From an uncultured virus (IMG/VR IMGVR_UViG_3300029305_010146) (taxonomy: Duplodnaviria; Heunggongvirae; Uroviricota; Caudoviricetes): DNA of 64,000 nucleotides. Positions 6,642-61,019 of this stretch are shown here, one piece after another (positions within the stretch are counted from its first letter, which is position 1; each line of letters opens with the position of its first letter). The stretch is taken from IMG/VR virus record IMGVR_UViG_3300029305_010146; one strand, given 5' to 3'. The position numbers and the translations under genes are program-made. The notes under the pieces were generated by a model, which had not been told where the DNA came from, made no database searches, and worked only from the letters and a program-made list of their open reading frames with translations.

Positions 6642-7568
6642 ATGAAGATTAATATTAAGGAAATCACATCAAAGGTAAACGGCGAAAGTGTTTCTGGTGT
6701 CGTTTATGTCAAAAATGCAAACATCAATGTTGCAAAAAATGGCAAGAAGTACATCCAAGGTCTTCTAATTGACAATAAGGAAAGTATTTTCTACAAGGTC
6801 TGGGGAGACTATATGGAAGCATTCCAAAAGGTTAATGCGACATCGCAAATTCTCTACATCGAAGGTACCGTAAATGTATTTAACGATACAACTTCTATCG
6901 TAATCACAAAGGCAATGCCTTCTAATGAAGGTTTGACCCCTGCCGATTTCATTACTGGTCACGACAGAGATGCCCTTGAAAGAGAATTCTACGAAATCAA
7001 TAAGCGTCTTCTGTCCCCTAATGCTTACGACATTTTGAATGTTATTGTTAGAGATAAAGTTAAAGACCGTTTCTTCATGGAATATGCTGGCATGACAATG
7101 CACGATGCTTGCCCCAGCGGTGTAGCAAATCACACCGTTAAAATGCTTCGCATTCTTGAGACAATCATCAATAACGACCCTCGCCTCACACCGTGGACAG
7201 ACCTTTTGGTTCTTGGTGTTGATTTGCACGATGTCGGCAAAATTAAGGAAATGTACAATGGAAACTATCGCAAAAACTCCTTTGTTACACACAGAGAATT
7301 TGGAGTTGAATTACTGATGAATAACAAGGACTTTATTATATCTCAATTCAATGACGATTTCTATTATCGTCTTGTTTCCATTATTCGTGGGCATCACGAT
7401 GAATTTGAGGAAAAGGCAAAGACTGTATATGCATATATCACTTTTTTGATTGATATGCTTGATTCTCAAGTTTCTCATATTCTGGATTGTGTCGAAGCAG
7501 AAAATCTCAAAGAAGAATCTTCTGGCGACAGTTATATCCAATCTCACGACCACAAGTTGTATGTATAA
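6642..7568 (+). CDS. yhaM: YhaM/Cbf1-like 3'-5' exoribonuclease (OB fold + HD domain)
   Basis: N-terminal OB-like 'AKNGKKYI...KVW'. HD motifs MHDA...NHT, LHDVGKIKE, GHH and IDMLDS. Confidence 0.82.
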   Translation: MKINIKEITSKVNGESVSGVVYVKNANINVAKNGKKYIQGLLIDNKESIFYKVWGDYMEAFQKVNATSQILYIEGTVNVFNDTTSIVITKAMPSNEGLTPADFITGHDRDALEREFYEINKRLLSPNAYDILNVIVRDKVKDRFFMEYAGMTMHDACPSGVANHTVKMLRILETIINNDPRLTPWTDLLVLGVDLHDVGKIKEMYNGNYRKNSFVTHREFGVELLMNNKDFIISQFNDDFYYRLVSIIRGHHDEFEEKAKTVYAYITFLIDMLDSQVSHILDCVEAENLKEESSGDSYIQSHDHKLYV

Positions 7569-7615
7569 AAAATGCGGGAGAAAATCTCCCGCATACCAAA
7601 ATATAGGAGGTTATT

Positions 7616-8440
7616 ATGGCAAATAAAAAAGATTCATTGGGCGATAGAATGAAGTCCAATTACGAAAATAGAGCAAAAACTTATCTCGTTCGCAGACAAC
7701 CTGTAATTCTGCGACTTGACGGTAAGGCTTTCCACACTTTTACAAGAGGATTAAAGAGACCTTACGATGAAATCTTTCACAAGGCAATGAACGATACACT
7801 TATGACCCTTTGTGAAAATATTCAAGGTTGCAAAGTTGGTTATACACAGTCTGACGAAATTACCCTTCTTTTGACTGATTATGATACCCTAACTACCGAT
7901 GCTTGGTTTGACTATGCAGTGCAGAAAATGTGTAGTATCGCCGCTTCAACGGCAACCCTCGCATTCAATAAATCCCTCGCAAAAAGTGTTGATGACTTTT
8001 TCAATACCAAAATTTCTGGTGTTGAAGAGTTGTCTGCTGATAGCGAAGACTTTAAGTATTTCAAGACCCTTATGAAGGCAGTAAATACTGGTGCGATGTT
8101 TGATTGCCGTTGTTTCAATATTCCAAAAGAAGAGGTCGTAAACTGTTTCATTTGGAGACAGCAAGATGCAACAAGGAATGCAATTCAAATGCTTGGTCAG
8201 TGTAATTTTTCACACAAAGACCTAAATGGCAAATCTTGCAATGACATTCAAGATATGCTGATGGTGCAAAGAGGAATTAACTTTAACGATATGCCAACCG
8301 AATTTAAGAGAGGAGTCTGTTGTGTTCGCACAGAACAAGTATCAACTAACAGCACTACTCCTACGAGGATGAAGTGGACTATCGACAAAGAAATTCCAAT
8401 TTTTTCAAAAGATTTCAACTATATTGAAAAATATATTTAA
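7616..8440 (+). CDS. thg1: tRNA(His) guanylyltransferase Thg1-like protein
   Basis: RLDGKAFHTFT, YTQSDEITL, FDCR, WRQQDATRNAI and FKRG motifs. Confidence 0.93.
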   Translation: MANKKDSLGDRMKSNYENRAKTYLVRRQPVILRLDGKAFHTFTRGLKRPYDEIFHKAMNDTLMTLCENIQGCKVGYTQSDEITLLLTDYDTLTTDAWFDYAVQKMCSIAASTATLAFNKSLAKSVDDFFNTKISGVEELSADSEDFKYFKTLMKAVNTGAMFDCRCFNIPKEEVVNCFIWRQQDATRNAIQMLGQCNFSHKDLNGKSCNDIQDMLMVQRGINFNDMPTEFKRGVCCVRTEQVSTNSTTPTRMKWTIDKEIPIFSKDFNYIEKYI

Positions 8441-8447
8441 TTAACTA

Positions 8448-8476
8448 TTGACAAAAGGAAATCTTTGTGATATAAT
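8448..8476 (+). promoter_or_regulatory. Sigma-A-type promoter of tRNA-Gly
   Basis: TTGACA-N17-TATAAT with extended -10 TG. Confidence 0.8.
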
Positions 8477-8506
8477 ACGGATGCCAGCGAAAGTTGGCAT
8501 CTATAT

Positions 8507-8583
8507 GCGGGTGTAGTGTTTAACGGCCAGCATGCCTGCCTTCCAAGCAGGAGGTACGGGTTCGAATCCCGTTACTCGCTCCA
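8507..8583 (+). tRNA. tRNA-Gly(TCC)
   Basis: Cloverleaf; anticodon arm CCTGC-CTTCCAA-GCAGG; GGTTCGAATCC; encoded CCA. Confidence 0.95.
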
Positions 8584-8602
8584 AAAATTTTTTTAAAAAG
8601 TC

Positions 8603-8631
8603 TTGACAATTAGATTTTTTTATGTTATAAT
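8603..8631 (+). promoter_or_regulatory. Sigma-A-type promoter for the tRNA-Met/leader/tRNA array unit
   Basis: TTGACA-N17-TATAAT with extended -10 TG. Confidence 0.85.
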
Positions 8632-8638
8632 ACCATAT

Positions 8639-8714
8639 AGCGGGATAGAGCAGGTGGTAGCTCGTTTGGCTCATATCCAAAAGGTCGTTGGTTCGACTCC
8701 AACTCCCGCAACCA
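8639..8714 (+). tRNA. tRNA-Met(CAT), initiator-like
   Basis: CAT anticodon; unpaired A1:A72 and A11:U24 initiator features; CCA end. Confidence 0.88.
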
Positions 8715-8761
8715 GTGACGAAAGTCGCATATTAAATCTTGACAGAAAGGAAGTATTCAGT

Positions 8762-8869
8762 ATGACTGTTTACAATGCAATTCAAAAAATTCAACAGTGT
8801 AAACAAGTAGGCATGTTTAAGTTTATTAAACGTGTCCATTCGTCATGCCATGAATACAACCACTGTTAA
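8762..8869 (+). CDS. Putative 35-aa attenuator leader peptide MTVYNAIQKIQQCKQVGMFKFIKRVHSSCHEYNHC
   Basis: SD-like AAAGGAAG upstream. It lies in a structured leader before a terminator and is enriched in I/Q/K/C/V/M/F. Confidence 0.6.
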   Translation: MTVYNAIQKIQQCKQVGMFKFIKRVHSSCHEYNHC

Positions 8870-8934
8870 AGGTTACGTTCTGCCTGCAATATAAAACTGG
8901 TAGATTACGGTTAAAAATTTTTAACAAACAAGTA

Positions 8935-8976
8935 GCGGTTCTGTATCCATGGGATGCAGAACCGTTTTCTTTTTTT
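8935..8976 (+). terminator. Intrinsic terminator (candidate attenuator) immediately before the tRNA array
   Basis: GCGGTTCTGTATCC-ATG-GGATGCAGAACCGT followed by a long T tract, 4 nt before tRNA-Gln. Confidence 0.85.
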
Positions 8977-8980
8977 ACAT

Positions 8981-9056
8981 TGGGGTATCGCCAAGCGGTA
9001 AGGCACAGGACTTTGACTCCTGCATTCCGAAGGTTCGAATCCTTCTACCCCAGCCA
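8981..9056 (+). tRNA. tRNA-Gln(TTG)
   Basis: CAGGA-CTTTGAC-TCCTG arm; CCA end. Confidence 0.95.
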
Positions 9057-9061
9057 TATAT

Positions 9062-9137
9062 GCACCTGTAGCTCAGTTGGAAGAGCACTCGACTTTTAAT
9101 CGAGGAGTCATGGGTTCGAGTCCCATCAGGTGCACCA
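9062..9137 (+). tRNA. tRNA-Lys(TTT)
   Basis: CTCGA-CTTTTAA-TCGAG arm; CCA end. Confidence 0.95.
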
Positions 9138-9142
9138 AATAT

Positions 9143-9218
9143 GGAAAGGTAGCTCAACAGGTAGAGCAGTGGACTGAAAATCCACGTGTAGTCGGTTCGA
9201 CTCCGTCCCTTTCCACCA
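9143..9218 (+). tRNA. tRNA-Phe(GAA)
   Basis: GTGGA-CTGAAAA-TCCAC arm; CCA end. Confidence 0.95.
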
Positions 9219-9221
9219 TAT

Positions 9222-9295
9222 GGCGATGTCGTCAAGTGGTAAGACAGCAGTCTGCAAAACTGTTACCCCCAGTTCGAATCTGGGCATCGCCTCCA
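9222..9295 (+). tRNA. tRNA-Cys(GCA)
   Basis: GCAGT-CTGCAAA-ACTGT arm; U73 discriminator; CCA end. Confidence 0.93.
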
Positions 9296-9301
9296 CTCTA
9301 T

Positions 9302-9377
9302 GCATTCGTAGCTCAACTGGGAGAGCACTCGACTCTTAATCGAGGGGTCGTGGGTTCAAACCCCACCGAATGCACCA
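9302..9377 (+). tRNA. tRNA-Lys(CTT)
   Basis: CTCGA-CTCTTAA-TCGAG arm; CCA end. Confidence 0.95.
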
Positions 9378-9382
9378 AATAT

Positions 9383-9459
9383 ACACTCGTAGTTCAGTTG
9401 GTTAGAATACTTGCTTGACATGCAGGGGGTCGTTGGTTCAAGTCCAATCGAGTGTACCA
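9383..9459 (+). tRNA. tRNA-Val(GAC)
   Basis: CTTGC-TTGACAT-GCAGG arm; ACACTCG/CGAGTGT acceptor; CCA end. Confidence 0.92.
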
Positions 9460-9465
9460 TTATCT

Positions 9466-9541
9466 GCGACATTAGCTCAGTTGGCAGAGCACCGTGCTGA
9501 TAACGCGGGGGTCACTGGTTCAAGTCCAGTATGTCGCACCA
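9466..9541 (+). tRNA. tRNA-Ile(GAT)
   Basis: CCGTG-CTGATAA-CGCGG arm; CCA end. Confidence 0.94.
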
Positions 9542-9545
9542 ACAT

Positions 9546-9621
9546 GCAATATTAGCTCAGTAGGTAGAGCACCGTGCTGATAACGCGGGGGTCGTTGGTT
9601 CAAATCCAGCATATTGCACCA
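9546..9621 (+). tRNA. tRNA-Ile(GAT), second copy
   Basis: Same anticodon arm as 9466-9541 with a different acceptor stem (GCAATAT/ATATTGC); CCA end. Confidence 0.93.
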
Positions 9622-9697
9622 GCACCATTAACTCAACTGGTAGAGTGCTTCCCTTACAAGGAAGAAGTTATAGGTTCGAGTCCTATATGGTGTACCA
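9622..9697 (+). tRNA. tRNA-Val(TAC)
   Basis: CTTCC-CTTACAA-GGAAG arm; abuts the previous tRNA; CCA end. Confidence 0.93.
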
Positions 9698-9702
9698 TAT
9701 AT

Positions 9703-9778
9703 GCCACGGTAACTCAGTTGGTAGAGTATCGGCCTCATATTCCGAAAGTCAGCAGTTCGAACCTGCTCCGTGGTACCA
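9703..9778 (+). tRNA. tRNA with CAT anticodon (elongator Met or Ile2)
   Basis: TCGGC-CTCATAT-TCCGA arm; paired 1:72; CCA end. Confidence 0.88.
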
Positions 9779-9782
9779 ACTT

Positions 9783-9858
9783 GGGAAGATAGCAAAGATG
9801 GTCTATGCAACGGACTGAAAATCCGAGGATACTGGTTCGATACCAGTTCTTCCCACCA
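9783..9858 (+). tRNA. tRNA-Phe(GAA), divergent second copy
   Basis: CGGA-CTGAAAA-TCCG arm; GGGAAGA/TCTTCCC acceptor; CCA end. Confidence 0.88.
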
Positions 9859-9893
9859 AAAAGCATTGGATTAAATCCAATGCTTTTCTTTTT
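9859..9893 (+). terminator. Terminator of the tRNA array
   Basis: AAGCATTGGAT-TAA-ATCCAATGCTT plus T tract. Confidence 0.85.
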
Positions 9894-9960
9894 CTATTGA
9901 CATTTGCAGTAAAATATATTATTATATTATATAACATTTAACATTTAAGGAGTGAAATAA

Positions 9961-11280
9961 ATGCAAAATAACTCTAAAAATAATATTCCTTTTGAAGAAG
10001 AGTTACATGCTGACAATATTGACACCAAAAAAATCGATGAATGGGCAATGTGTTATGAAAACTCTCCAGAAGAAGACGAACAAGAGCGAAAAATGGAAGA
10101 GGAATATAAACAGCAACGCAAAGAAGCACTAAAAACACTGTTTAAAACACCAAAATACAAAAGCAAAAAAACACAAAGAAATGCCTTTGTTCTAAAAGTT
10201 ACGATTTTAGCAATGCTATTATCTCTTGCTTTCGGCACATGTGGTGCTTATCTTTACACACATTATATTGGTGGTGCTATAACGGTTCAAAGGGGCGATG
10301 TAACAATAAATGTCGTTGAAAAAAATGACCCACCAACTTTAGAAAACTACGACCCCAATTCAATTCCATCCGTTGTTGCTAAAACAGAAAACAGTGTTGT
10401 TGCTATCACGACAAACACCATTTCCAAAAACCCAATGATAGGCCAATACATTCAAGAAGGCGCAGGTAGTGGTGTAATTATTTCAGAAGATGGTTATATC
10501 ATCACGAACACACATGTGATTAGTGAAGCGACAAGCATTATTGTCAGACTACACAATGGTCAAGAATACACTGCTTCTATTGTTGGTTCGGATATAACAA
10601 CTGACATAGCGGTGATTAAAATTGAAGTAAAAGGTTTGTCTCCGATTGTTTTCGGAGATTCCAAAAACATTGTGGTTGGACAGACGGTTATCGCAATTGG
10701 TAATCCACTTGGCGAGTTAGGAGGAACTGTTACTTCTGGTATTATCTCTGCAAAAGATAGAGAATTAACAATCAATAAGCAAAATATGAATTTACTTCAG
10801 ATTTCTGCCGCAGTAAACCCTGGCAATTCTGGTGGTGGATTGTTTAATTTAGATGGCGAATTAGTAGGAATTGTAAATGCTAAAAATTCTGATGTAGGTA
10901 TCGAAGGACTTGGTTTCGCCATTCCCGCAAACGATGCACAAGATGTTGCCAAACAACTAATTGAAAATGGCAAAGTCACTGGGCGTCCACAATTAGGCAT
11001 TTCTGTTGTTGAAATTTCCAACACGGCAGAAATTTACAACTATGTATCTGACCCAATTTATCCATATTTAGATACAACGGGCCTTTATGTAATTGATGCC
11101 ACAACCCCACACTTATTCCTTGGCGATAAGATTATTGCAATTGATGGTCAATCGATGGATACTTATGACGACCTTAAAGATTACATCAATACGAAAAAGG
11201 TCGGAGATACAGTTTCCGTTACAATTTCCAGAAGCAAACAAATTCAAACATTAACCATTGAACTTACAGAAAAACCTTGA
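9961..11280 (+). CDS. htrA: HtrA/DegP-like serine protease with PDZ domain
   Basis: TM anchor; GSGVII, TNTHVI, DIAVIK and GNSGGGL triad motifs; C-terminal PDZ. Confidence 0.95.
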   Translation: MQNNSKNNIPFEEELHADNIDTKKIDEWAMCYENSPEEDEQERKMEEEYKQQRKEALKTLFKTPKYKSKKTQRNAFVLKVTILAMLLSLAFGTCGAYLYTHYIGGAITVQRGDVTINVVEKNDPPTLENYDPNSIPSVVAKTENSVVAITTNTISKNPMIGQYIQEGAGSGVIISEDGYIITNTHVISEATSIIVRLHNGQEYTASIVGSDITTDIAVIKIEVKGLSPIVFGDSKNIVVGQTVIAIGNPLGELGGTVTSGIISAKDRELTINKQNMNLLQISAAVNPGNSGGGLFNLDGELVGIVNAKNSDVGIEGLGFAIPANDAQDVAKQLIENGKVTGRPQLGISVVEISNTAEIYNYVSDPIYPYLDTTGLYVIDATTPHLFLGDKIIAIDGQSMDTYDDLKDYINTKKVGDTVSVTISRSKQIQTLTIELTEKP

Positions 11281-11445
11281 TTTTAAGTGCCACATTTTGT
11301 GGCACTTTTTCTATTGACATTATTATAAATCTATGGTATAATAACAACAAAGAAAATATTTTTTGAAGTTTTTATTTTGTTATTATACAATATTTATATC
11401 TTTATATAAATTTATAAGGAGAAATTTCATAAAGGAGGAAGATAT

Positions 11446-12468
11446 ATGAAAGATATTATCCAAAGACCAGAATATGACTTTTTCAGAACAAATCCCGACA
11501 TTTGTGATAAGGTTTTATTGCTGACATATGGCGGAAGTATCGCCTATGGCACAAACAATGAAAATTCCGATACCGATATCCGTGGTGTTTGTCTCAACAG
11601 AAAAGAAGATATTCTCGGTTTCAACGAAATGCACCAGTTCGAACAATTTATTGACCCAATAACCGATACTGTAATTTATTCTTTGAATAAATTAACAAGA
11701 TTGCTTATTTCGTGCAACCCAAACACAATTGAAATTCTTGGTTGCCGTCCCGACCATTATCACATGGTCAATAAGTACGGTCAAATGTTGCTCGACAACA
11801 AAGAATTGTTTTTATCTCAAAAAGCAGTTAATTCTTTTTCTGGTTATGCAAGACAGCAATTGGCACGTCTCGAAAATGCCTTGGCGCGAGATAGACTTGC
11901 TCAAAGCAAAAAAGAAATGCACATCCTTAATGCTTGCCAATCAACAATTGACGCTTTTGAAAAAAGATATTCTTTTAACCCAGCAAAATTCATTGAACTT
12001 GTGTTGATGGACTCTGAAAAAGAAGATTTTGACAAAGAAACTTTCGTTAACGTCACTCTGCATAACGTTCCTTTGAGAGAATTTGCTGGTATGGCAGCAG
12101 ACCTTGCGAACGTTGCAAAATGTTATGATAAACTAAATCACAGAAATAGCAAAAAAGACGACAATCATCTCAACAAACATGCAATGCACCTTGTTCGTCT
12201 TTATTTGATGGGCATTGATATCTTGGAAAAGGCTCAAATCGTAACCTATCGTGCCGACGACATTCCTGAATTGATGGGTATTCGTAACGGAAAATATCAA
12301 AAAGAAGACGGAACTTATTACGATGAATTTTTTGAAATGGTCAACGAGTATGAAAAGCGTATCCAATATGCCGCAAAACATACTGTTTTGCCGCCTGAAC
12401 CAGACTATAAAAAGATTCACGAAATGATTTCTGAAATCAACTATCTTACTGTTGTAGATAGAATTTAA
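11446..12468 (+). CDS. Pol-beta-superfamily nucleotidyltransferase (RlaP/YcgL-like)
   Basis: GGSIAYGTNNENSDTDIRG (GS...DxD), NPNTIEIL and KHAMHLVRL motifs. Confidence 0.85.
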   Translation: MKDIIQRPEYDFFRTNPDICDKVLLLTYGGSIAYGTNNENSDTDIRGVCLNRKEDILGFNEMHQFEQFIDPITDTVIYSLNKLTRLLISCNPNTIEILGCRPDHYHMVNKYGQMLLDNKELFLSQKAVNSFSGYARQQLARLENALARDRLAQSKKEMHILNACQSTIDAFEKRYSFNPAKFIELVLMDSEKEDFDKETFVNVTLHNVPLREFAGMAADLANVAKCYDKLNHRNSKKDDNHLNKHAMHLVRLYLMGIDILEKAQIVTYRADDIPELMGIRNGKYQKEDGTYYDEFFEMVNEYEKRIQYAAKHTVLPPEPDYKKIHEMISEINYLTVVDRI

Positions 12469-14848: not shown

Positions 14849-16699
14849 ATGTTTTGCCCTGTATGTGGGAATCAAGTAGAAAACAATACGAAATTTTGCG
14901 GTAACTGCGGTAATAAATTTGAAGCAGAACCCGTTCTTGCCCAGGCACCAGAACAAGACGAAGCCGATGCTATCGCATCTTTCTTAAGTGAAATGGACAA
15001 TTTAGGCAAACACGAAGATGTTGCCCCTGTATCTGAAGAAGTAGCATTTAACGACAATACTGATGCTGTGCATCAAGATACAGAAAATAGATTATTTTTA
15101 GATGATGATGACGAAGAAGATACAGTTTCGGACGAAGCAATTGTAAGTCAGTTTTTTGACAATCTCGATACATTAGATACTGATGAAACAATGAAGTTAA
15201 CAAGTGAGTATAAAGCAGAAGACAATAATGCTCGAAAAATTGCACCAGTTTTTGAAGAAATACCAGAAGAAGTTGTGCTTCCTGACCCAGAACCAGAAAT
15301 TACTGATGCACCAATGAATTTTGTTGACGATGATTATTCCGATATCGTAATGGGAGATGAAAAACCAGTTTCCCCTCCTCCAATGCCAATCGTCACTCCA
15401 GTAGAAACGGTTTTAGAAGAACCAATTGTTGAGAAAGTTCCAAATGCTGAACCAGTTGTCGAAGAATTAGAAGCCACCAACAAAAATACTGAAAAACCAA
15501 CAGAAGAACCGCTCATAGCACCTCCTATTGAATTAGAAAGTTGTGAACCAGAAGAGCCTCATATTCTCATTGATGAAAGACCAGACCTCGAACAGGTTGT
15601 GCCAGAAAATAATATTGGCGATTACAATGTCAATGTCAATTCACCAGATGCTTCCTATACTCCATATTTAGATAGTTTTGTAAGTAAACCAAACTTCAAT
15701 GTGGACTTTGAAACACCTGCCGAACCAATTTTTGCACAACCAATGGAGAACAGTGTTGTTCCCGAAAATACAATTCCCCAGCCAGAAGTTTCTGCTGTTC
15801 CAATCTTTAATGATACACCTACATTTAAGGAACCCCCAGCGCAAAATCCACAACAGCAGTCTTTCGTTCCACCAATACAGCAGAACACAGTAACCCTTCC
15901 TGCTCAACCAGAAACTGTGCCAATGCAAGAGCGACCCACTCAAAATTTCGCACAACCCAAAAAGAAGAAAAATACAGGTCTTATTGTTACTTTTTCTATT
16001 ATTGGTGTTTTACTCATCGGTATAGTTGTTTCTGGAATTATGCTTAAGGATACAATTATAGGTTGGTTTGATGGGACACCGTCTGTCGAAGTTCCAGTAG
16101 CCACAGACCCATCTACTAATGATACAGAATCCAACGAAACAACTACCCCAAGCAAACCAGAAGATACTAAACCAACAACCCCTGAAAAAACTGACCACAA
16201 TCCAAATTGGGAAATTAAGGAGAATTCTGGTTTAGATATGCCACTTATTACTGGCGATGCAACCTTGGTTTCTAAATACCTTGACGACACAAGGACATAT
16301 GAAAATCTCCAAGTAAAACTTTCTGATATTGTTCGTGGTGACGACGCTCTCGCCATCGCACAGGAATATGAAAGCCAGACGACTGTTCGTTTTGAAAAAC
16401 CAACAGAAGGTGTAGAATATGTTGTTGTCGAATATCAAGTTTATGTGCCATTTGATTTAAATACAAACAGCACAACCACAAATCTTCCTATCGAAGTTAG
16501 AGGATTAAACACAAATGGTGTAGTATACAATAATGTTTCTTATATCATTTCCACTTGGTGTATTGCTGATGGCGAAAATTCTTCTGCAGGTTCTCTTGTA
16601 ACTTGTCGTGAAATTTTCCAAATGCCAGTTGGTTGTAACAACTATTATATTGTATTTGGTACACAAGGTCAAACAACCGCCGTATTTAAAGGCGAATAA
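14849..16699 (+). CDS. Zinc-ribbon, acidic/Pro-rich single-pass membrane protein
   Basis: CPVC...CGNC, a long E/P/D-rich region, KKKKN then a TM helix, and a C-terminal globular domain. Confidence 0.85.
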   Translation: MFCPVCGNQVENNTKFCGNCGNKFEAEPVLAQAPEQDEADAIASFLSEMDNLGKHEDVAPVSEEVAFNDNTDAVHQDTENRLFLDDDDEEDTVSDEAIVSQFFDNLDTLDTDETMKLTSEYKAEDNNARKIAPVFEEIPEEVVLPDPEPEITDAPMNFVDDDYSDIVMGDEKPVSPPPMPIVTPVETVLEEPIVEKVPNAEPVVEELEATNKNTEKPTEEPLIAPPIELESCEPEEPHILIDERPDLEQVVPENNIGDYNVNVNSPDASYTPYLDSFVSKPNFNVDFETPAEPIFAQPMENSVVPENTIPQPEVSAVPIFNDTPTFKEPPAQNPQQQSFVPPIQQNTVTLPAQPETVPMQERPTQNFAQPKKKKNTGLIVTFSIIGVLLIGIVVSGIMLKDTIIGWFDGTPSVEVPVATDPSTNDTESNETTTPSKPEDTKPTTPEKTDHNPNWEIKENSGLDMPLITGDATLVSKYLDDTRTYENLQVKLSDIVRGDDALAIAQEYESQTTVRFEKPTEGVEYVVVEYQVYVPFDLNTNSTTTNLPIEVRGLNTNGVVYNNVSYIISTWCIADGENSSAGSLVTCREIFQMPVGCNNYYIVFGTQGQTTAVFKGE

Positions 16700-16792
16700 T
16701 ATATAACATATACAAAAGAGATGCTCTCCAAAGCATCTCTTTTTGTTATTTTAAACAAATAAAAAATTTTAAAAATATTTTTAAAAAAACTC

Positions 16793-16821
16793 TTGACAAA
16801 TCAAAATTCTTGTGCTATAAT
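16793..16821 (+). promoter_or_regulatory. Consensus sigma-A promoter of the large ncRNA locus
   Basis: TTGACA-N17-TATAAT with TG extension and an A/T-rich UP element. Confidence 0.88.
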
Positions 16822-16827
16822 AAACCT

Positions 16828-17880
16828 ACACTTCTCGTAAGAGAGTGATTGGTAGTCACCACCAAGTTCGAAAGAACATAATGCGCTTCGGCGGTCTGCT
16901 GGGAACAGACGTGAATATCGCTGGAAACAGCGATTGTTTTTGTCTGCGGAAACAAAGGCAAAAACCTATGTCGCTTTAAGCGACAAATGTTCGCAACGGT
17001 CTCGTCCGCAAGGATGCTGCCAAGTACGAGCAAACTTGCTCGAAAGAGCAATTGATAAGTTCTCGCAAGAGTTAAACTTATCCAGATGTCTTTTAACCGA
17101 CATCTCGCTACCTTCGGTAGCAAAAAAGAGTTTCGATTTCAAAACTCTGTTCTCTTACAGAAGGTGTGAAAACACCTGTCGTGTTTAACACTCGATGTTT
17201 TAGAACGAAGCGATTTGCAGAAATCGGTTTTGTACAAACCAGCGGAAATCTCCATTCCACTACCCAAGTTCATTTTTGCGACGGCGAAACAGAACATAGC
17301 AAATTCTGATGAACAACGGAGAAAAATCATAAAACAATTGCCGTTAATGTTCAGTTTTATGTTGTATTAAAAACTCGGTGCAGAGAACCTTTGTCGGGTT
17401 GCCGAGGCATATTGAATGATGTGTTGCTTCTGATAAGGATTACTTTTTAGGGGACAACATCCGAAGTGCAGCGATGCAGTTCGGAAAGACGGAAACCGTC
17501 AATATCAAGATATGTCGCTCTCTCTTTTCGCTAACAAACACACAGTTCTTGTGGCGACAACAATTGACGCTCTCGGTGAGAGAATAAACCTGCAAGTGTC
17601 GTGGTGGAACACGGTAGACTACAGGAAATCCAAAACAATGTCGTTTGCAGTGAAGCGAAGAAATTCGCGTATAACACAAGTTTATGGTCAAAGTAGCCCA
17701 ATGCAACAATTAAAGAAATTAAGTATTTAATTATTCAAATTAAAAAATTCTTTGAATTATAAAAACTTGCCGAAAGATGGGTGAAATGTGCGAGTAATCA
17801 GTCTCGTATGAGCATTATGGAACTTCGGTTCAAGACAAATAGCCAAGGGTCGCTCCCAAACGCTCGGATTTGCCTTCTCA
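16828..17880 (+). ncRNA. Large structured ncRNA, GOLLD-like (tentative)
   Basis: No credible ORF; GC higher than flanks; many GNRA/UUCG-capped hairpins. The 3' blocks (GGTGAAA...GAGTAATCAGTCTCG, AGCCAAGGGTCGCTCCC) resemble GOLLD as I recall it; unverified. Confidence 0.6.
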
Positions 17881-17964
17881 TTAGTGTAATATGTTAGAAG
17901 TTAAGAGATAGTAAGATGAAAGTCTTCTAATACAACATAAAACTGAACATTAGCATCAAAAAGC

Positions 17965-18527
17965 AAATGTTTAGTGATGACTTAATACTTCAAAGCAAGT
18001 ATATGAGTTCCCTGACAATGTGCGAAACGCACCACACTTAATTCGTTCTGTGTGATTGCGGGTCGATGCTGGACTTCACACAATGTTTAGAGTATGGCAG
18101 TCGTTACCATAAGCAAACTCAACAAAATGCTCATCCGCAAAACGGATGCTAAAACGACCGTGTTAACATCAATCAACACGAAAGAACTTCTAATTATATG
18201 TTGACGATTTTTCAAAAACCAGATATGTATTTTTCAAAGTTCAGTTATGTATTTTCATAACGATTGATTATTCTGCACACGATTTATCGTGTAAATAATT
18301 TGGGTTTTGTAATCTTCCCAGAGGATACCAAAAGTTCCCCTCAATAAAAAGCGAAAGATATACCGTTATATATCATTCCTATCGTCGCAGAAGCGGTAAT
18401 TGCATTTGTGGTCAACCATTTGAATTATAAAGTTTTGATGGAAAAATCACACTTCTATTCAAAGTGACGGACAATTTGATGACTATATATTTAATTCGTG
18501 TTTTTTCAACCCAACATCAATTAAATT
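17965..18527 (+). ncRNA. Large structured ncRNA, ROOL-like (tentative)
   Basis: ~560 nt with pairing ends (TTTAGTGATG / CATCAATTAAA). Blocks AATGTTTAG, CCCTGACAAT, TATCATTCCTAT, TTGAATTATA and AAGTGACGGACAATTTGATGACTAT resemble ROOL as I recall it; unverified. Confidence 0.65.
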
Positions 18528-18534
18528 AAAAGAT

Positions 18535-18571
18535 AAGAGTGGTTCGATGAAAGTCGAACCACTCTTTTTTT
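18535..18571 (+). terminator. Strong terminator closing the large ncRNA locus
   Basis: AAGAGTGGTTCGAT-GAAA-GTCGAACCACTCTT plus T tract. Confidence 0.9.
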
Positions 18572-18612
18572 GCTTTTGTTGTCTTTTGAAACTGGCAAAA
18601 GCATTTTAAAAC

Positions 18613-18751
18613 AAAAAAAGAACAAGACCGCATAGCGGTCCTGTCTTTTTCTTTGAAAATACACACACATAAGGAGAGTTTTATGAAAACTCGTACGCTT
18701 TTATCAAAATGAGCGATAACATTTTTATCAACCTCACATTCGAGTGTTGAT
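18613..18751 (-). ncRNA. Candidate ~140-nt small RNA
   Basis: Minus-strand TTGACA-N17-TATAAT (18786-18758), three hairpins, and a minus-strand terminator (G-U pair works only on minus) at 18613-18644. Confidence 0.6.
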
Positions 18752-18873
18752 GTAATCATTATAACACCTAAATTGTGTTTTGTCAAGTATTTTTAAACAA
18801 TATTTTTAAAATATATTGACTTTTTATAATTTACTCTTTAATATTATTTATAATATAAAATACAAAAAAAGGA

Positions 18874-19194
18874 GTGAAAACAATGAATGACAAAACATAT
18901 CAGATTAAACTTGTTTTTCATAACAGTTACGATGATATAAGTATTGAATTAGTCACTTCGGAATTTAATGAACCAACAATAGATGATATTCAAGATATAA
19001 ATACTACCAAACAATTGGTATATTATTTATCAGAAATGTTTGGCGATTCTTTATATGAATATATGGACCAAGAAATCCTTGATATGTTGGATGAAGTAGA
19101 ACTTGAAGATATTTCCGATGTTATGATTCTGGATGTTGAAGAAAACATTACATACTATATCAACCCTCAACGAAAAACTGTTGATGTGGAATAA
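18874..19194 (+). CDS. Small acidic hypothetical protein
   Basis: ORF with SD and promoter; D/E-rich. The start may be ATG 18883. Confidence 0.7.
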   Translation: MKTMNDKTYQIKLVFHNSYDDISIELVTSEFNEPTIDDIQDINTTKQLVYYLSEMFGDSLYEYMDQEILDMLDEVELEDISDVMILDVEENITYYINPQRKTVDVE

Positions 19195-19257
19195 TTTCTT
19201 GAAAGAATTTTAGCATTTTTATATACTAATTAAAAAATTATAAAGGAGTGCTTTTAA

Positions 19258-19875
19258 ATGGAAAATTCAACTTTAAGAGTAAAATTAACTAATGAAGATA
19301 TGCTAAAACTTAATAAGGATGGTGGCCTCACGGTTAAAAGTGACGACAAATTTGTAACCATCCTGTCTATCGATACAAAAGACGGAACATTAGATATGTG
19401 TTCTTTTAAGGATACACACGAAGGTTTAAAACCTGTTACTATTATCACAAAGTTTGACATGGAAAACGGTCAGCACTTTTTCAACACAATCCGTTTTGGT
19501 TCAAAAACCTTTGATAATAGAGATATTCAAGAAGTGTATTCTGACGCTCTTACAAATGCCAAAGAATTAAAAATCTACAAGAATGAAGAAAAGGAAATTG
19601 TTCCTATTGATATTGGTGACCTTTCAGAAGAGTTTTCCGACATTATTTTAGAAGCAATCGAAGAAGCAAGAAAAAAAGAAGATGCCGAAGTACTTTTGGA
19701 GATTGATGGTGAAATTTATCATTTGGATGGCAGTCTCCATGATATCGAAACCGACGTTGATAAAATCGATAATGATGATGACAAGGAAAAAGACGATGAA
19801 GATAAAGACGACGACAAGGATATCAGCGAAATTGATGACTACGATTCTTATGATGATGGACCAGCGGATTACTAA
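19258..19875 (+). CDS. Acidic hypothetical protein
   Basis: SD AAGGAG; Asp-rich C-terminus. Confidence 0.75.
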   Translation: MENSTLRVKLTNEDMLKLNKDGGLTVKSDDKFVTILSIDTKDGTLDMCSFKDTHEGLKPVTIITKFDMENGQHFFNTIRFGSKTFDNRDIQEVYSDALTNAKELKIYKNEEKEIVPIDIGDLSEEFSDIILEAIEEARKKEDAEVLLEIDGEIYHLDGSLHDIETDVDKIDNDDDKEKDDEDKDDDKDISEIDDYDSYDDGPADY

Positions 19876-48127: not shown

Positions 48128-48241
48128 GAACTAAAGTTAAAACCCACACATCCAAGATGTGTGGGTTTTTTCTTGATTTAACAAAAAAATTAGAATAAAA
48201 TTTATCTAAATATGACTTTTAAGAAAGGAAGTGTATTACAT

Positions 48242-51200
48242 ATGGCAAAACATCCTTTTATTGATATAAGAAATCTGCCAGATGATATGGACAAAAGGGA
48301 GGCAATCGCATCAGTACGCGAAGCAATTGGCGATATTAATGATAATCCCGATATATCCAAAATTATTTGCGAATATGATACATCTGATGGTGGCGATTCC
48401 AAGGTGTCCAACTATATTGCTATTGGTAGCAACTTCACCATTGAGACATCTAACCCTTCTACTATTGCAGATAAACTTGGCATTATCGCAGAAGTTAGAG
48501 AAGATGGACACATTGATAACGAAGACAGGATTACTTTGCGTGGCGAAGATTATTGTTCCGTAAAAGATGTAGATACAAACATAACCGCTCACTTTGGAGA
48601 TACTTCTTCTGCAATTGAAGCATTTTCTTCCGACTATAGAGACGACCATCCAATTGTTTCTACAACAAGAGATGGCGCTGTATTTTTTAGCAATGATGAT
48701 GAAAAAGTTGTATGTAGACCAGATTCCGACGGTCATTTATCTGTACAAAGAATAGATATAGTTACCGATACCGAAGATTCAAGAATTTCTGTAAGACCAG
48801 ATAGGGATGGTTCTGCTTTTGTTGTTGAATATACACATATGGATGGATATGAAACAGATATTAAAGTTGTTTCTTCTACCCTACCTTCTTTTGAAGAAAT
48901 GCTTGATAAAGGTGCCTCCTCTGTCGCTCTTGACAGTATAAGCGAAGCACATACTGCATTAGATGGCATTGGTGACAGACTTGAAAGTGTTACATCTTTT
49001 GCCGACTCTCTTGTTTCTTTTCATAAAGAAGATACTGGTGCAGATACAAAACCAGAAATTAGAATTGTTTACCATCCAGACAATGAAGATTTAAAAACTA
49101 ATGTTGTATACGGAAGAGAAACATTTGTTTTAGATTTTGACCAAAACAACCCAGATAAAGTTGATTCTATTGGTTACAGACAAGAAGATGGTGCTTTCGC
49201 TCGCTTTGACAGTCCAGAAACTTTATTCACTGCAATGGCTTCTGATTTCAGAGAAACACATTCCGATATTACAACTGGCAATGACGGTAAGATTATATAT
49301 TTTAGCAATGATACTGAAAAAATTGCTTGCAGTGTTGATAGTTCTGGTGAATTAATTCCGTTTAGAATTGATTTAACAGAAAAAGATACCGATTCTCGCA
49401 TTTCTATTACCCCAACAAAAGAAGATTCTTGTATATTTACTGAATTTGATAAAGTTGGCGATACAGATATTAGAATTAGAGCATTTGCTTCTCCTGATAC
49501 TCAAAGTTTTTCCGAAATTGTAAAAGGAGGAGACTCTTTAGAAATTGCAAGAGGCCAACTTGATATCGCTCGTGATAAAATCGATGCATCTACCGACAAG
49601 TTGCAAGTTTATACGGATTTAGCAGAATCTATATCTGAACATAGAGGTGAAAATTCTGATGCTTCTCCTCGTGTCGATGTATCTTGTTATTCAGATTCAA
49701 AAGAACCTCAAATTTCTCTTTCATGCGGAAGAGATGAAGAATATAGAATCGACTTTGACAAAAAAAATAACCCCGAAAGTGTTTCCTACAGAGTAACTGT
49801 CCGTGAAGAAAACCAAGTTGAAAGACCAAGTATCTGTTTTGATAGCAGAATAGAAGGATTCGATGTAAAAGAGTACATCGAAAGTAAAGAATTTCATGAA
49901 ATTTGTGCATCCTTCTCCGATAATGCAGATGCTTCTTGGGGAACAAGAGAATATACGGTTGGCGATAACTTCGTTTCTGTCATCGATAAAGACAGAGAAC
50001 ACCCAGAATTCAAAATTTGTACAGTTGAATTGCCAGAAAGCGAAGACGAAAAACAAGATGATACCGTTGAAAAATCGACCGTTGAAAAAATCAATGAGGC
50101 CGTTGAAAAAATCGGCGAAGTGGAAGATAAAATCGAAAAGGCTGGCGAGACTTACGACCCAGATGCTCGTCATGACCAATTTGATGTTGTTTCGTCTCTT
50201 TCACCAGAGGCGATGTCTAATTTGGAAATTAGTATAGACAAAGACGGAAATTGTGATTTTTCTGTAAGAATGCCAGAAGGTTTTGAAGGAGAGGTTTTTA
50301 AAGATGGAGAAAACTTCTTTTCCGATAAAATTGCCGATGGGGAAAAAGTTCATTCTATTGAAATAGAACGTCCTTATGCCACAAGTGCAAATGATACCGT
50401 TGTTGTTAAAATTGATTCTGGAATATCTATGCACACAAAAGATGGTGATGTTGAACGTTTTAACATACGCGAATTTGATGCTGGTTCTGGCGATTTATTG
50501 ACAAGTAGAGAATATGTCACATCCGATAAAAATCCAGATATTGTATATTGTGTTGATAAAAAAATCGTTGACATTAGACCAGACGGTAGTATGGTCGGTG
50601 TTGCACAAGTAACAGCAATACGCAACGAAGGTCACGGCATCGGTAGTATGATGCATGCTGGACATGGCAGAACCTTTAATGTAATTGACGTTCGTTCCAT
50701 TTACAATTTATTCGGTAATCCAAATCAAGTTTCTGTTGCAAGTGGTGTTTTTGATACTTCAAAAATGTCTATTCCAACAACAGATGCAAGCGGGAAACCT
50801 TTGTCTCCAACAGAAATGTCATCAAGAATAAATGATGCAATTAGAGCAGGCGATTTTGCTGCTGTTAGTTTGGAGGAAAAAGTAGAAACCATTGATAAAT
50901 CAAATGTTTCTTTTTCCGATATGTATGATAAACTCTGCAAGTATTCAGAAAATTATGGAACACTTTCTAATAATATTGCAGAAGTTTCTGAAAAAATCGC
51001 AGAAGTTAGACAAGAATTGTATGAAGCATACAGAAATCCAGATTCCACAGCACAAGAAATCAAAGACCTTAAAAGCGAACTCAAAGGTTACGAAAAAGAG
51101 TTAAATTCACTACGTAGCGAATTCGGTGGTAAATCCGAAGCAAGAGAATTTAAATTTTTTGATAGCTTTGAGCGTTTGGGAAATGCTACAAGTGAAATTC

Positions 51201-60284: not shown

Positions 60285-61019
60285 ATGAAAGACATATCTT
60301 TTAAAAAAGGTTATACATTAGTAGAATTGCTTGCAGTATTAGCAGTCTTAATGATAATCGCTGCAATTTCTCTTTCTGTGTTTTCTGATTTAGATAGAAT
60401 TAGCGACAGTCGTGTTGACCAAAGTAGAATATTGATTTATAATAAAGCATTCGAAGATTTTCGTTTTACAGATTATAGTACATTGCAATCAACCCCAGAA
60501 GAAAGTGTTGTCATTATGCAGGGTGGTAAGGTAAAAATCAATCAATACCTTAACCTATCAATGGAAGATGTCGAAGCACTTGCGAGTTCTGGAAAAGGAA
60601 GATATCCACAAAATAAAAGAGAGTGCATTGCTGTTATAAGGGCATATTGCGGAACAAACAATATTTTACCTTTCCCTGCATCAGGACCTTCGTACTCCTA
60701 TTTTTATCATATACCAGAAGGAAAGTGCCATGTTAAAGCCGTATCCGATATTTCTCCTTTGGATACTGATTGGATTAATCTCAATGAATATTATACAGTT
60801 ATTTCCGAATACGTACTTGGCGATGTCGATGGCAATAAAAAAATCGAATTAAATGATTTAACTATGTTATCAAATTATTTGGCATCATCATATTCGTTTA
60901 GCGACCCTTATTTGTACCTTTGTGCAGACCTGAACCAAAATGGTGCTGTTGATTACAATGACCTTACATTTTTAGAGGGCGTCATTAATGGTAATAACAA
61001 AGTTCCTACTTGGAAATAA
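60285..61019 (+). CDS. Minor type IV pilin with C-terminal dockerin domain
   Basis: KKG|YTLVELLAVL; duplicated Ca-loop repeats GDVDGNKKIELNDL...YL and ADLNQNGAVDYNDL. Confidence 0.88.
   Translation: MKDISFKKGYTLVELLAVLAVLMIIAAISLSVFSDLDRISDSRVDQSRILIYNKAFEDFRFTDYSTLQSTPEESVVIMQGGKVKINQYLNLSMEDVEALASSGKGRYPQNKRECIAVIRAYCGTNNILPFPASGPSYSYFYHIPEGKCHVKAVSDISPLDTDWINLNEYYTVISEYVLGDVDGNKKIELNDLTMLSNYLASSYSFSDPYLYLCADLNQNGAVDYNDLTFLEGVINGNNKVPTWK

What the first reader, a model, noticed from the sequence alone, without database searches (positions are those of the whole stretch)
16793..18571. One ~1.74-kb non-coding transcription unit that appears to carry two giant RNAs in tandem (GOLLD-like then ROOL-like)
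Seen: a perfect extended sigma-A promoter (16793-16821) and a strong terminator (18535-18571) enclose ~1.74 kb with no SD-led ORF and higher GC than the flanks. The region is dense in tetraloop hairpins: CGTCC-GCAA-GGATG 17003, TTGCTC-GAAA-GAGCAA 17036, AGGTGT-GAAA-ACACCT 17162, GAAC-TTCG-GTTC 17820, AAGAT-GAAA-GTCTT 17913. I saw no internal promoter or terminator. The distal ~560 nt is closed by a long-range helix (17970-79 with 18515-25). Established: GOLLD and ROOL are large ornate ncRNAs of phages/prophages and Bacillota, often near tRNA arrays, and have been reported to form RNA-only multimeric assemblies. Inference from remembered motifs, not a search: 16828-17880 is an unusually long GOLLD-like RNA and 17965-18527 is ROOL-like. 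Co-transcription would link the two families functionally, as a processed precursor or a hetero-assembly. If neither model matches, it is a new giant ncRNA.
Basis: partly seen in the sequence, partly recalled or inferred. Interest (0 to 1): 0.92.

Follow-up and report, generated by a model that had tools for sequence, protein, structure and literature searches.

The report
ROOL RNA with unexplained structured flanks
This highly expressed 1.75-kb non-coding gene of an uncultured animal-gut bacterium has a genuine ROOL "nanocage" RNA in its middle, not at its end, contains no GOLLD, and carries an unusually hairpin-rich RNA of no known family in front of the ROOL.

Summary
The promoter (16793-16821), the terminator (18535-18566 plus T-run) and the ORF-free 1.74 kb between them are real. 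The family labels are wrong. Rfam places one full-length ROOL at 17350-17944 (340 bits, cut-off 99). No GOLLD match (RF02032) appears even at E<=10.

RNA-derived contigs from three gut metatranscriptomes (two studies) tile 16846-18531. They leave the neighbouring genes uncovered, and they bridge both ROOL junctions.

The 5' flank (about 515 nt) folds at z = -7.1. It has 8 GNRA/UUCG-capped hairpins on the + strand and none on the - strand. Shuffles give 0.5, and the regions upstream of 69 other ROOLs reach at most 3. It matches no Rfam family and no flank of about 112-120 other ROOL loci.

The 3' flank (about 580 nt) is AT-rich, weakly structured and unexplained.

I read this as a composite ROOL operon: a new ornate leader, ROOL, then a trailer. 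Weak hints suggest that ROOL is cut out at the base of its extended closing stalk. I found no relatives divergent enough for a covariation test.

The parts
16793..16821 (+). Extended sigma-A/sigma-70-type promoter (TTGACA, 17-nt spacer with TG, TATAAT). The predicted transcription start is near 16828.
   Evidence: 12 of 12 hexamer matches plus TG. RNA contigs begin at 16846 (X14) and at about 16843-16879 (X17), and nothing upstream is covered.
16828..17342 (+). 5' domain: a string of about 16 short hairpins, 8 of them capped by GNRA or UUCG tetraloops, starting with a stem-loop at the very 5' end. It belongs to no known family.
   Evidence: Fold z = -7.14. 8 GNRA/UUCG hairpins on + and 0 on - (0 of 500 shuffles reach 8). 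Outlier against 69 other ROOL upstream regions (max 3) and 470 window tiles (max 4). Rfam gives only noise at E = 5.4. Covered by RNA contigs in X14, X15 and X17.
17343..17954 (+). ROOL RNA. The Rfam match is 17350-17944. The closing stem P1 is extended by a 10-bp helix, 17343-52 with 17945-54, giving a stalk of about 27 bp.
   Evidence: RF03087, 340.2 bits (cut-off 99.1), model 1-574 of 574, E 1e-77; the 10-bp extension is reached by 0 of 500 shuffles; similar extensions occur in 4 of 7 other complete ROOLs.
17955..18534 (+). 3' flank (trailer): AT-rich, modest predicted structure, three tandem units of about 22 nt at 18207-18272, no tetraloop hairpins. It is the least variable part between strains. 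Function unknown.
   Evidence: z = -2.55 on + and -3.63 on -. 0 GNRA/UUCG hairpins. Repeats. RNA contigs 17956-18531 (X15), 17956-18515 (X17) and 17585-18522 (X14), with 0.35-1.1% differences against 1.5-2.6% in ROOL. No Rfam match.
18535..18572 (+). Intrinsic terminator: 14-bp stem, GAAA loop, T-run.
   Evidence: RNA contigs end at 18515-18531 and the downstream genes are uncovered. In a related strain, 18532-18601 is replaced by 68 other letters (X8).
17326..17344 (+). Candidate long-range pairing partner: the end of the 5' domain is predicted to pair with 18393-18412 in the 3' flank.
   Evidence: Full-transcript MFE. Duplex -20.4 kcal/mol, reached by 1 of 200 shuffles, but one natural control reaches -18.9. 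Suggestive only.

Best explanation
This is a single, strongly expressed, non-coding transcription unit of about 1.75 kb on the chromosome of an uncultured low-GC bacterium of animal guts. It has three parts.
1. A roughly 515-nt 5' domain made of many short hairpins capped by stable tetraloops. It is a structured RNA of no described family.
2. A canonical ROOL RNA. By family membership it should assemble into an RNA-only multimeric cage. Its paired ends form an extended stalk of about 27 bp.
3. A roughly 580-nt AT-rich trailer that ends at an intrinsic terminator.

Shown here: the ROOL identity, the absence of GOLLD, the promoter and terminator, the lack of coding capacity, RNA-library cover confined to the unit, and the exceptional hairpin and tetraloop content of the 5' domain.

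Inferred:
- The unit is made as one precursor on the + strand.
- ROOL is at least partly released by cleavage at the base of its stalk, as for rRNAs in their operons and as implied for L. salivarius ROOL.
- The flanks persist as stable RNAs. They either stay attached and are displayed on the outside of the cage, or they are released and possibly paired with each other.
For: - ROOL: 340 bits, full model.
- GOLLD and all other families: nothing at E<=10. The GOLLD model RF02032 is in the library.
- Promoter and terminator. No ORFs.
- Expression: in 3 RNA runs from 2 studies, contigs cover only the bins 16768-18582, at depths of 24-414. The flanking genes have about 0 depth, although DNA run X8 covers them.
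- Bridging contigs: 17041-17809 in X15 spans the 5' domain/ROOL junction, and 17585-18522 in X14 spans the ROOL/3' flank junction.
- 5' domain: z = -7.14 against -4.36 for the ROOL core. 8 tetraloop hairpins on + and 0 on -. Outlier against 69 other ROOL upstream regions and 470 window tiles.
- One divergent variant read in X17 changes the hairpin GUUC-GAAA-GAAC to UCC-GAAA-GGG, a compensatory change (loose end at 16879).
- Stalk: the 10-bp extension is reached by 0 of 500 shuffles.
- Contig ends at the base of the stalk: 17343 in X14, and 17956 in X15 and X17, two studies.
- Precedent: in L. salivarius the mature ROOL is about 520 nt, but its promoter maps 225-450 nt upstream (PMC5643018, passages).
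- RNAs fused to ROOL's 3' end do not disturb the octamer and are displayed radially (PMC12515178, passage).
Against: - No homologue of either flank was found, so there is no covariation test. Searches: phages and plasmids; 287 loci, of which 112 hold a ROOL at E<=1e-5; earlier windows of this scan; elsewhere in this window.
- Strain variants are uninformative. Of the 12 that fall in predicted pairs of the 5' domain, 8 keep the pair and 4 break it, and about half would keep it by chance.
- All read evidence comes from unstranded assembled contigs. It cannot show strand, true ends or levels.
- Contig breaks can also come from strain bubbles. In X15 the ROOL 3' part has low depth (about 19) between parts at 414 and 104, which is an assembly effect, so the apparent processing sites are a weak hint only.
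- The 5' domain varies between strains as much as ROOL or more (0.65-3.8%).
- The 3' flank has no tetraloop signature and folds slightly better on the - strand.
Confidence: 0.7

Rival explanations
1. The flanks are only a disposable leader and trailer of a ROOL precursor, like rRNA spacers. Their hairpins merely insulate ROOL folding or slow decay, and they have no function of their own.
For: - No flank homologue lies beside any other ROOL examined. 0 of 52 ROOL loci have a similar layout.
- The 5' flank is as variable between strains as ROOL or more so.
- An upstream promoter with a processed mature ROOL is indicated in L. salivarius.
Against: - The tetraloop density is twice that of the ROOL core and above all 71 ROOL cores examined (max 7).
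- The flank contigs have depths like ROOL's: 32, 24 and 29 in X17. Discarded spacers would be expected to be rarer.
- The 3' flank is the most conserved part between strains.
Confidence: 0.3
2. One reading: a long GOLLD-like RNA (16828-17880) followed by a ROOL-like RNA (17965-18527).
For: Only the general resemblance: a large, hairpin-rich, non-coding unit in a genome region with a tRNA array.
Against: - ROOL maps at 17350-17944 and overlaps the proposed GOLLD span.
- No GOLLD match at E<=10 in three searches, with the model present in the library.
- 17965-18527 matches nothing.
Confidence: 0.02
3. There are three independent genes, or the 3' flank is a separate gene read from the - strand (a convergent antisense RNA), and the contigs merely merge neighbouring transcripts.
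For: - Contigs are unstranded.
- - strand promoter-like sites with 10 of 12 matches lie at 18509-18482 and 18295-18267, and weak - strand terminator-like hairpins at 18181-18158 and 18148-18132.
- The 3' flank folds slightly better on - (z = -3.63 against -2.55).
- In X17 the unit is assembled as three pieces.
Against: - No + strand promoter better than 9 of 12 and no strong terminator lies inside the unit.
- Contigs bridge both junctions.
- The only consensus promoter and strong terminator on + enclose the whole unit.
- RNA cover ends at these two signals.
Confidence: 0.12
4. The 5' flank acts at the DNA level (palindromes for recombination or protein binding), or is a degenerate remnant of the tRNA genes that usually abut ROOLs.
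For: - Hairpins fold equally well on both strands (z = -7.14 and -6.97).
- tRNAs lie within 300 nt of 35 of 52 other ROOLs.
Against: - Loop identities are strongly strand-specific: 8 GNRA/UUCG on +, 0 on -. This points to selection at the RNA level.
- No tRNA or tRNA-like match at E<=10.
- The region is abundant in RNA libraries.
Confidence: 0.05

Closest known systems
ROOL RNA (Rfam RF03087; Weinberg et al. 2017, PMC5737381; cryo-EM nanocages, PMC12286853 and PMC12990946)
   Same: The central 595 nt is a full-length member: 340 bits, with a closing stem and an AT-rich variable linker. It is abundant in RNA libraries. A tRNA array lies in the wider neighbourhood.
   Different: It is embedded in a 1.75-kb unit, between about 515 nt and about 580 nt of other transcribed non-coding RNA. 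The nearest tRNA is 7.5 kb away. In 35 of 52 other ROOL loci a tRNA lies within 300 nt, and none of the 52 has 500 nt or more of tRNA-free, ORF-free sequence on both sides.
L. salivarius megaplasmid lncRNA, which is a ROOL (Cousin et al. 2017, PMC5643018)
   Same: A very abundant ROOL whose promoter lies well upstream (-225 to -450) of the mature 5' end mapped by circular RACE. This implies a leader that is removed (passages).
   Different: There, only the region of about 520 nt accumulates. Here, leader and trailer contigs have depths comparable to ROOL, and the leader is itself densely structured.
GOLLD RNA (Rfam RF02032)
   Same: A large ornate RNA of similar genomic habits. It has a variable 5' domain joined to a conserved domain (passages). 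The overall idea of a conserved cage-forming module plus a variable structured 5' part is similar.
   Different: No match to the GOLLD model at E<=10. The conserved module here is ROOL.
Bacterial rRNA operons (established knowledge: mature RNAs excised from one precursor at long stalks formed by their flanking sequences)
   Same: One strong promoter and one terminator. A large structured RNA has ends that pair in a stalk of about 27 bp reaching into the flanks. Contig ends lie at the base of the stalk.
   Different: Cleavage is not shown here, and the responsible nuclease is unknown. The flanks appear stable rather than discarded.
Engineered ROOL-cargo fusions (Ling et al., as summarised in PMC12515178)
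   Same: Extra RNA attached to a ROOL end is compatible with octamer assembly and is displayed radially (passage). The natural flanks here would sit at the same ends.
   Different: Those are artificial 3' fusions of small RNAs. Here the appendages are natural, lie on both ends and are about 0.5 kb each. Assembly was not tested.

Membership tests
ROOL (RF03087) | Covariance-model score above the curated gathering score, over the whole model | tested here: met
   340.2 bits against 99.1, model positions 1-574 of 574, E 9.8e-78, window 17350-17944 +.
ROOL (RF03087) | Size near 581 nt, with the 5' and 3' ends paired in a closing stem and a variable internal linker | tested here: met
   595 nt. P1 pairs about 17356-71 with about 17925-41 in the model alignment. 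An AT-rich insertion lies at about 17700-17770. The size norm comes from PMC5737381.
ROOL (RF03087) | Usual context: next to tRNA genes and/or in prophages (typical, not obligatory) | tested here: inconclusive
   A 13-tRNA array lies at 8507-9858, 7.5 kb upstream. No tRNA is adjacent, against 35 of 52 other loci with a tRNA within 300 nt. Neighbouring Thg1, nucleotidyltransferase and protease genes have strong PHROG matches, but the window carries SecA, RpoD and RecD2.
ROOL (RF03087) | RNA-only homo-oligomeric cage (hexamer or octamer) | not testable with these tools
   Known for Efa, Lsa and env-120 ROOLs. Inferred here from membership only.
GOLLD (RF02032) | Match to the GOLLD covariance model (416 positions, gathering score 150 bits) | tested here: not met
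   No GOLLD row at E<=10 in 16700-18700, nor in either flank searched alone. The model's presence in the library is shown.
Any other Rfam 15 family, for the 5' flank | Covariance-model match | tested here: not met
   Only snoU83B at E = 5.4, 14 bits.
Any other Rfam 15 family, for the 3' flank | Covariance-model match | tested here: not met
   The best is mir-1902 at E = 0.093, 21.8 bits against a cut-off of 80. Sub-threshold sRNA rows at 18450-18660 sit on the terminator hairpins.
Structured non-coding RNA (generic), for the 5' flank | Compensatory base changes in predicted helices across divergent relatives | tested here: inconclusive
   Only strains 96-99% alike were available. 8 of 12 paired-site variants keep the pair. 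One compensatory change was seen in a divergent read end. No divergent homologues were found.

The most novel reading that the evidence does not exclude
The 5' domain is the first member of a new class of ornate RNA that works together with ROOL. It would be made in fixed proportion from one precursor. It would either stay attached, so that eight copies are displayed radially on the ROOL cage, or be released and dock onto or into the cage through its many GNRA tetraloops, possibly held to the 3' trailer by the 17326-44/18393-412 pairing. That would be a natural hetero-RNA assembly or a natural 'cargo' of an RNA nanocage, and a first handle on what ROOL cages do.
Probability: 0.15. Interest if true: 0.85.

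Novelty: new variant of a known kind. Interest (0 to 1): 0.55.

Why it matters
ROOL is one of the few natural RNAs known to build a closed cage without protein, and its function is unknown. Nearly all ROOLs examined here sit beside tRNA genes. This one instead sits inside a self-contained, strongly expressed operon, between a very densely structured RNA of no known family and a conserved trailer.

If the flanks are partners or cargo of the cage, the locus offers a natural system for asking what ROOL cages carry or display. If they are only a leader and trailer, the locus still gives a clean, promoter-to-terminator example of how a ROOL is transcribed and probably cut out at its extended stalk. 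Both readings can be tested with in vitro transcripts and with the gut RNA samples in which the unit is abundant.

Tried and rejected
- GOLLD label: rejected.
- ROOL at 17965-18527: rejected.
- Coding capacity of the flanks: none credible.

Homologue searches that found nothing for the flanks:
- blastn against phages and plasmids.
- nhmmer against 168 and then 287 fetched loci.
- Earlier-findings index, by sequence.
- The window itself.
- Viral contigs, through two neighbouring proteins.

Collection scans:
- A window-specific ROOL pattern found 0 metagenome contigs.
- My first genome contigs pattern was too loose.

Taxonomy by SecA:
- Identity was at most 56% in 401 genomes of one phylum sample, in 121 genomes of the best hit's order, and in 10 genomes reached by handle.
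- The organism could not be placed, and no relatives could be fetched that way.

No whole genome is held for the window.

Other tests:
- Strain variants as a structure test: uninformative.
- Stalk extension as something special to this locus: rejected, because 4 of 7 other ROOLs have one.
- The small convergent unit at 18612-18752 had no cover in the three RNA runs. With contigs this proves nothing.
- My recalled GOLLD accession was wrong and was corrected.
Full report
OBSERVATION

- A TTGACA-17-TATAAT promoter with a TG extension lies at 16793-16821 (12 of 12 matches). A 14-bp terminator hairpin with a T-run lies at 18535-18566.
- Between them, no ORF exceeds 102 aa. A scan for ORFs of 12 aa or more with a Shine-Dalgarno motif found nothing credible in either flank.
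- The five named hairpins exist. Two of them, at 17820 and 17913, are ROOL elements.
- Inside the unit, the + strand has only 9-of-12 promoter-like sites and weak hairpin-plus-T sites.
- GC is raised (0.39-0.445) only over 16800-17700. The 3' third is 0.305-0.41, no higher than the upstream gene.
- The proposed helix 17970-79/18515-25 is not above chance: -7.4 kcal/mol, reached by 45 of 500 shuffles, pair probability below 0.2.

WHAT THE KNOWN MODELS SAY

- A scan of the whole window against Rfam 15 gives one full-length ROOL (RF03087) at 17350-17944 on the + strand. It scores 340.2 bits against a gathering score of 99.1, over model positions 1-574 of 574.
- Permissive scans (E<=10) of 16700-18700 and of each flank alone give no GOLLD row and only noise otherwise.
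- The GOLLD model RF02032 is in the library. My first recalled accession was wrong.

IS IT TRANSCRIBED AS ONE UNIT?

Of the 24 public runs listed, 20 hold the stretch or part of it. All are animal gut or faecal metagenomes, and six are RNA libraries.

I laid the assembled contigs of three RNA runs (X14 and X15 from one study, X17 from another) and one DNA run (X8) on 15800-19400.
- In all three RNA runs, cover is confined to the bins 16768-18582, with contig depths of 24-414.
- The protein genes on both sides have essentially no RNA cover. The DNA run covers them, except for 16526-16767.
- RNA contigs start at 16846 (X14) and near 16843-16879 (X17). They end at 18515, 18522 and 18531. That is just inside the predicted start (about 16828) and the terminator.
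- Contigs bridge both ROOL junctions: 17041-17809 in X15 and 17585-18522 in X14.

These are unstranded contigs. They show presence and continuity, not strand, true ends or levels.

THE 5' FLANK (16828-17342)

- It folds far better than shuffles: z = -7.14, with 0 of 100 shuffles as good. The verified ROOL core gives -4.36.
- The opposite strand folds as well (-6.97), as hairpins must. The loops, however, are strand-specific. The + strand has 8 hairpins (stem of 4 bp or more) capped by GNRA or UUCG, and the - strand has none. Shuffles give 0.49 +/- 0.74, and 0 of 500 reach 8.
- This is an outlier on every scale I could build:
  - the 520 nt upstream of 69 other ROOLs: mean 0.57, max 3;
  - 470 tiles of this window: mean 0.57, max 4;
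  - 71 ROOL cores: mean 2.66, max 7.
- The first stem-loop begins two bases after the predicted start.
- A read end in X17 from a more divergent variant changes GUUC-GAAA-GAAC to UCC-GAAA-GGG, which is one compensatory pair.
- Strain variants otherwise do not decide. Of the 16 listed in this flank, 4 are unpaired, 8 keep a predicted pair and 4 break it. Only 41 of 134 variant rows were shown by the tool.

THE 3' FLANK (17955-18534)

- It is AT-rich and folds only modestly: z = -2.55 on + and -3.63 on -.
- It has no tetraloop hairpins.
- It has three tandem units of about 22 nt at 18207-18272.
- It encodes nothing credible.
- It is the least variable part between strains: 0.35-1.1% differences, against 1.5-2.6% in ROOL and 0.65-3.8% in the 5' flank. 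The counts are small.
- I cannot say what it does.

LONG-RANGE PAIRING AND POSSIBLE PROCESSING

- In a fold of the whole 1745-nt transcript, the ten bases just outside the ROOL on each side (17343-52 and 17945-54) pair perfectly. No shuffle reaches this (0 of 500). The pairing extends ROOL's closing stem to about 27 bp.
- This is not peculiar to this locus. 4 of 7 other complete ROOLs (L079, L131, L020, L142) also pair for 8-11 bp beyond the Rfam boundaries. L079 and L020 are close relatives of each other.
- The end of the 5' domain is also predicted to pair with 18393-18412 (-20.4 kcal/mol, reached by 1 of 200 shuffles). One natural control reaches -18.9, so this is only suggestive.
- RNA contig ends fall at the base of the stalk: 17343 in X14, and 17956 in both X15 and X17. 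In X17 the unit is assembled as three pieces that match the three parts, with depths of 32, 24 and 29. This fits cleavage at the base of the stalk.
- Strain bubbles break contigs too. X15 shows such an effect inside ROOL. I therefore treat processing as a weak hint.
- There is precedent. In L. salivarius the mature ROOL is about 520 nt by circular RACE, while the promoter mapped 225-450 nt upstream (PMC5643018, passages).

HOW UNUSUAL IS THE LAYOUT?

- Of 287 loci, 112 hold a ROOL by nhmmer at E<=1e-5. Rfam confirmed 9 of the 20 loci I submitted to it.
- Neither flank has any match in the 287 loci. The 5' flank gives 0 rows at E<=10, and the 3' flank gives one row at E = 2.7.
- In the 52 loci where ORFs bound the ROOL on both sides, the ORF-free gaps have medians of 318 nt upstream and 202 nt downstream. 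A tRNA lies within 300 nt in 35 of 52. None of the 52 has 500 nt or more of tRNA-free, ORF-free sequence on both sides.
- In this window the gaps are about 650 and 930 nt, and the nearest tRNA is 7.5 kb away.

CONTEXT

- The window is chromosomal: SecA, RpoD, RecD2, PhoH and many type IV pilins.
- A 13-tRNA array at 8507-9858 is flanked by HD, Thg1, HtrA-like and RlaP-type genes. Three of these (Thg1, HtrA-like, RlaP-type) have strong PHROG matches.
- The organism could not be placed. SecA is at most 56% identical to anything in the samples searched.

MECHANISM, WITH ODDS

- About 0.7: this is a composite ROOL operon read from one consensus promoter to one terminator on the + strand.
- About 0.85: the 5' domain is a genuinely structured RNA.
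- About 0.45: ROOL is excised at its stalk.
- About 0.35: the 5' domain has a role of its own rather than being a stabilising or insulating leader.
- About 0.3: the 3' flank is a functional RNA.
- RNAs fused to ROOL's 3' end leave the octamer intact and are displayed radially (PMC12515178, passage). Unprocessed flanks would therefore be compatible with cage assembly.

NOVELTY AND LITERATURE

- ROOL itself is known.
- Three searches (ROOL + GOLLD; 'ROOL RNA' + precursor; ROOL/nanocage/co-transcribed) and the passages I read in six papers describe no ROOL with extra structured domains in one transcript.
- I did not read those papers in full, nor their supplements.
- I therefore rate this as a new variant of a known kind. 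It includes a candidate new structured RNA that so far rests on a single lineage and lacks covariation support.

Noticed in passing
window 18612-18786 (- strand): A second perfect extended promoter (12 of 12 plus TG, 18786-18758, - strand) faces the ROOL unit. It is followed about 110-140 nt later by a strong - strand terminator (18645-18621). The 141-nt stretch folds at z = -4.9, so it is a candidate small RNA gene. No cover in the three RNA runs laid; because these are contigs, that proves nothing.
   Followed up: partly
window 6642-12468: A 13-tRNA array (8507-9858) is bracketed by an HD-domain protein, a Thg1-like tRNA-His guanylyltransferase, an HtrA-like protease and an RlaP-type nucleotidyltransferase. 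Three of these (Thg1-like, HtrA-like, RlaP-type) have strong PHROG matches (E 5e-55 to 5e-95). It looks like a phage-type tRNA and RNA-repair module in a chromosomal setting, 5-7 kb upstream of the ROOL unit.
   Followed up: partly
window 60285-61019 (+): A 244-aa protein combines an N-terminal type IV pilin methylation motif with a C-terminal type I dockerin domain. This is an unusual pairing: a pilin that could plug into a cohesin scaffold.
   Followed up: no
window 17486-17823 (run X14): The same metatranscriptome holds other ROOL variants, about 89% alike over the core and with a different linker. Their contig depths (about 1,300-1,600) are far above this strain's, so ROOLs of related gut bacteria are among the very abundant RNAs there.
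   Followed up: no
window 18532-18601 (run X8): In a strain about 98.7% alike, the 70 bases that hold the terminator are replaced by 68 unrelated letters, while both sides stay collinear. The terminator module appears to have been swapped between strains.
   Followed up: no
window 48212-53560 (+): A 1782-aa ORF with no Pfam match at E<=0.001.
   Followed up: no
window 16792-16824 (run X17): A 33-base match to the promoter core lies inside an unrelated 1277-nt RNA contig. The same consensus promoter sequence may drive another abundant transcript in this community.
   Followed up: no
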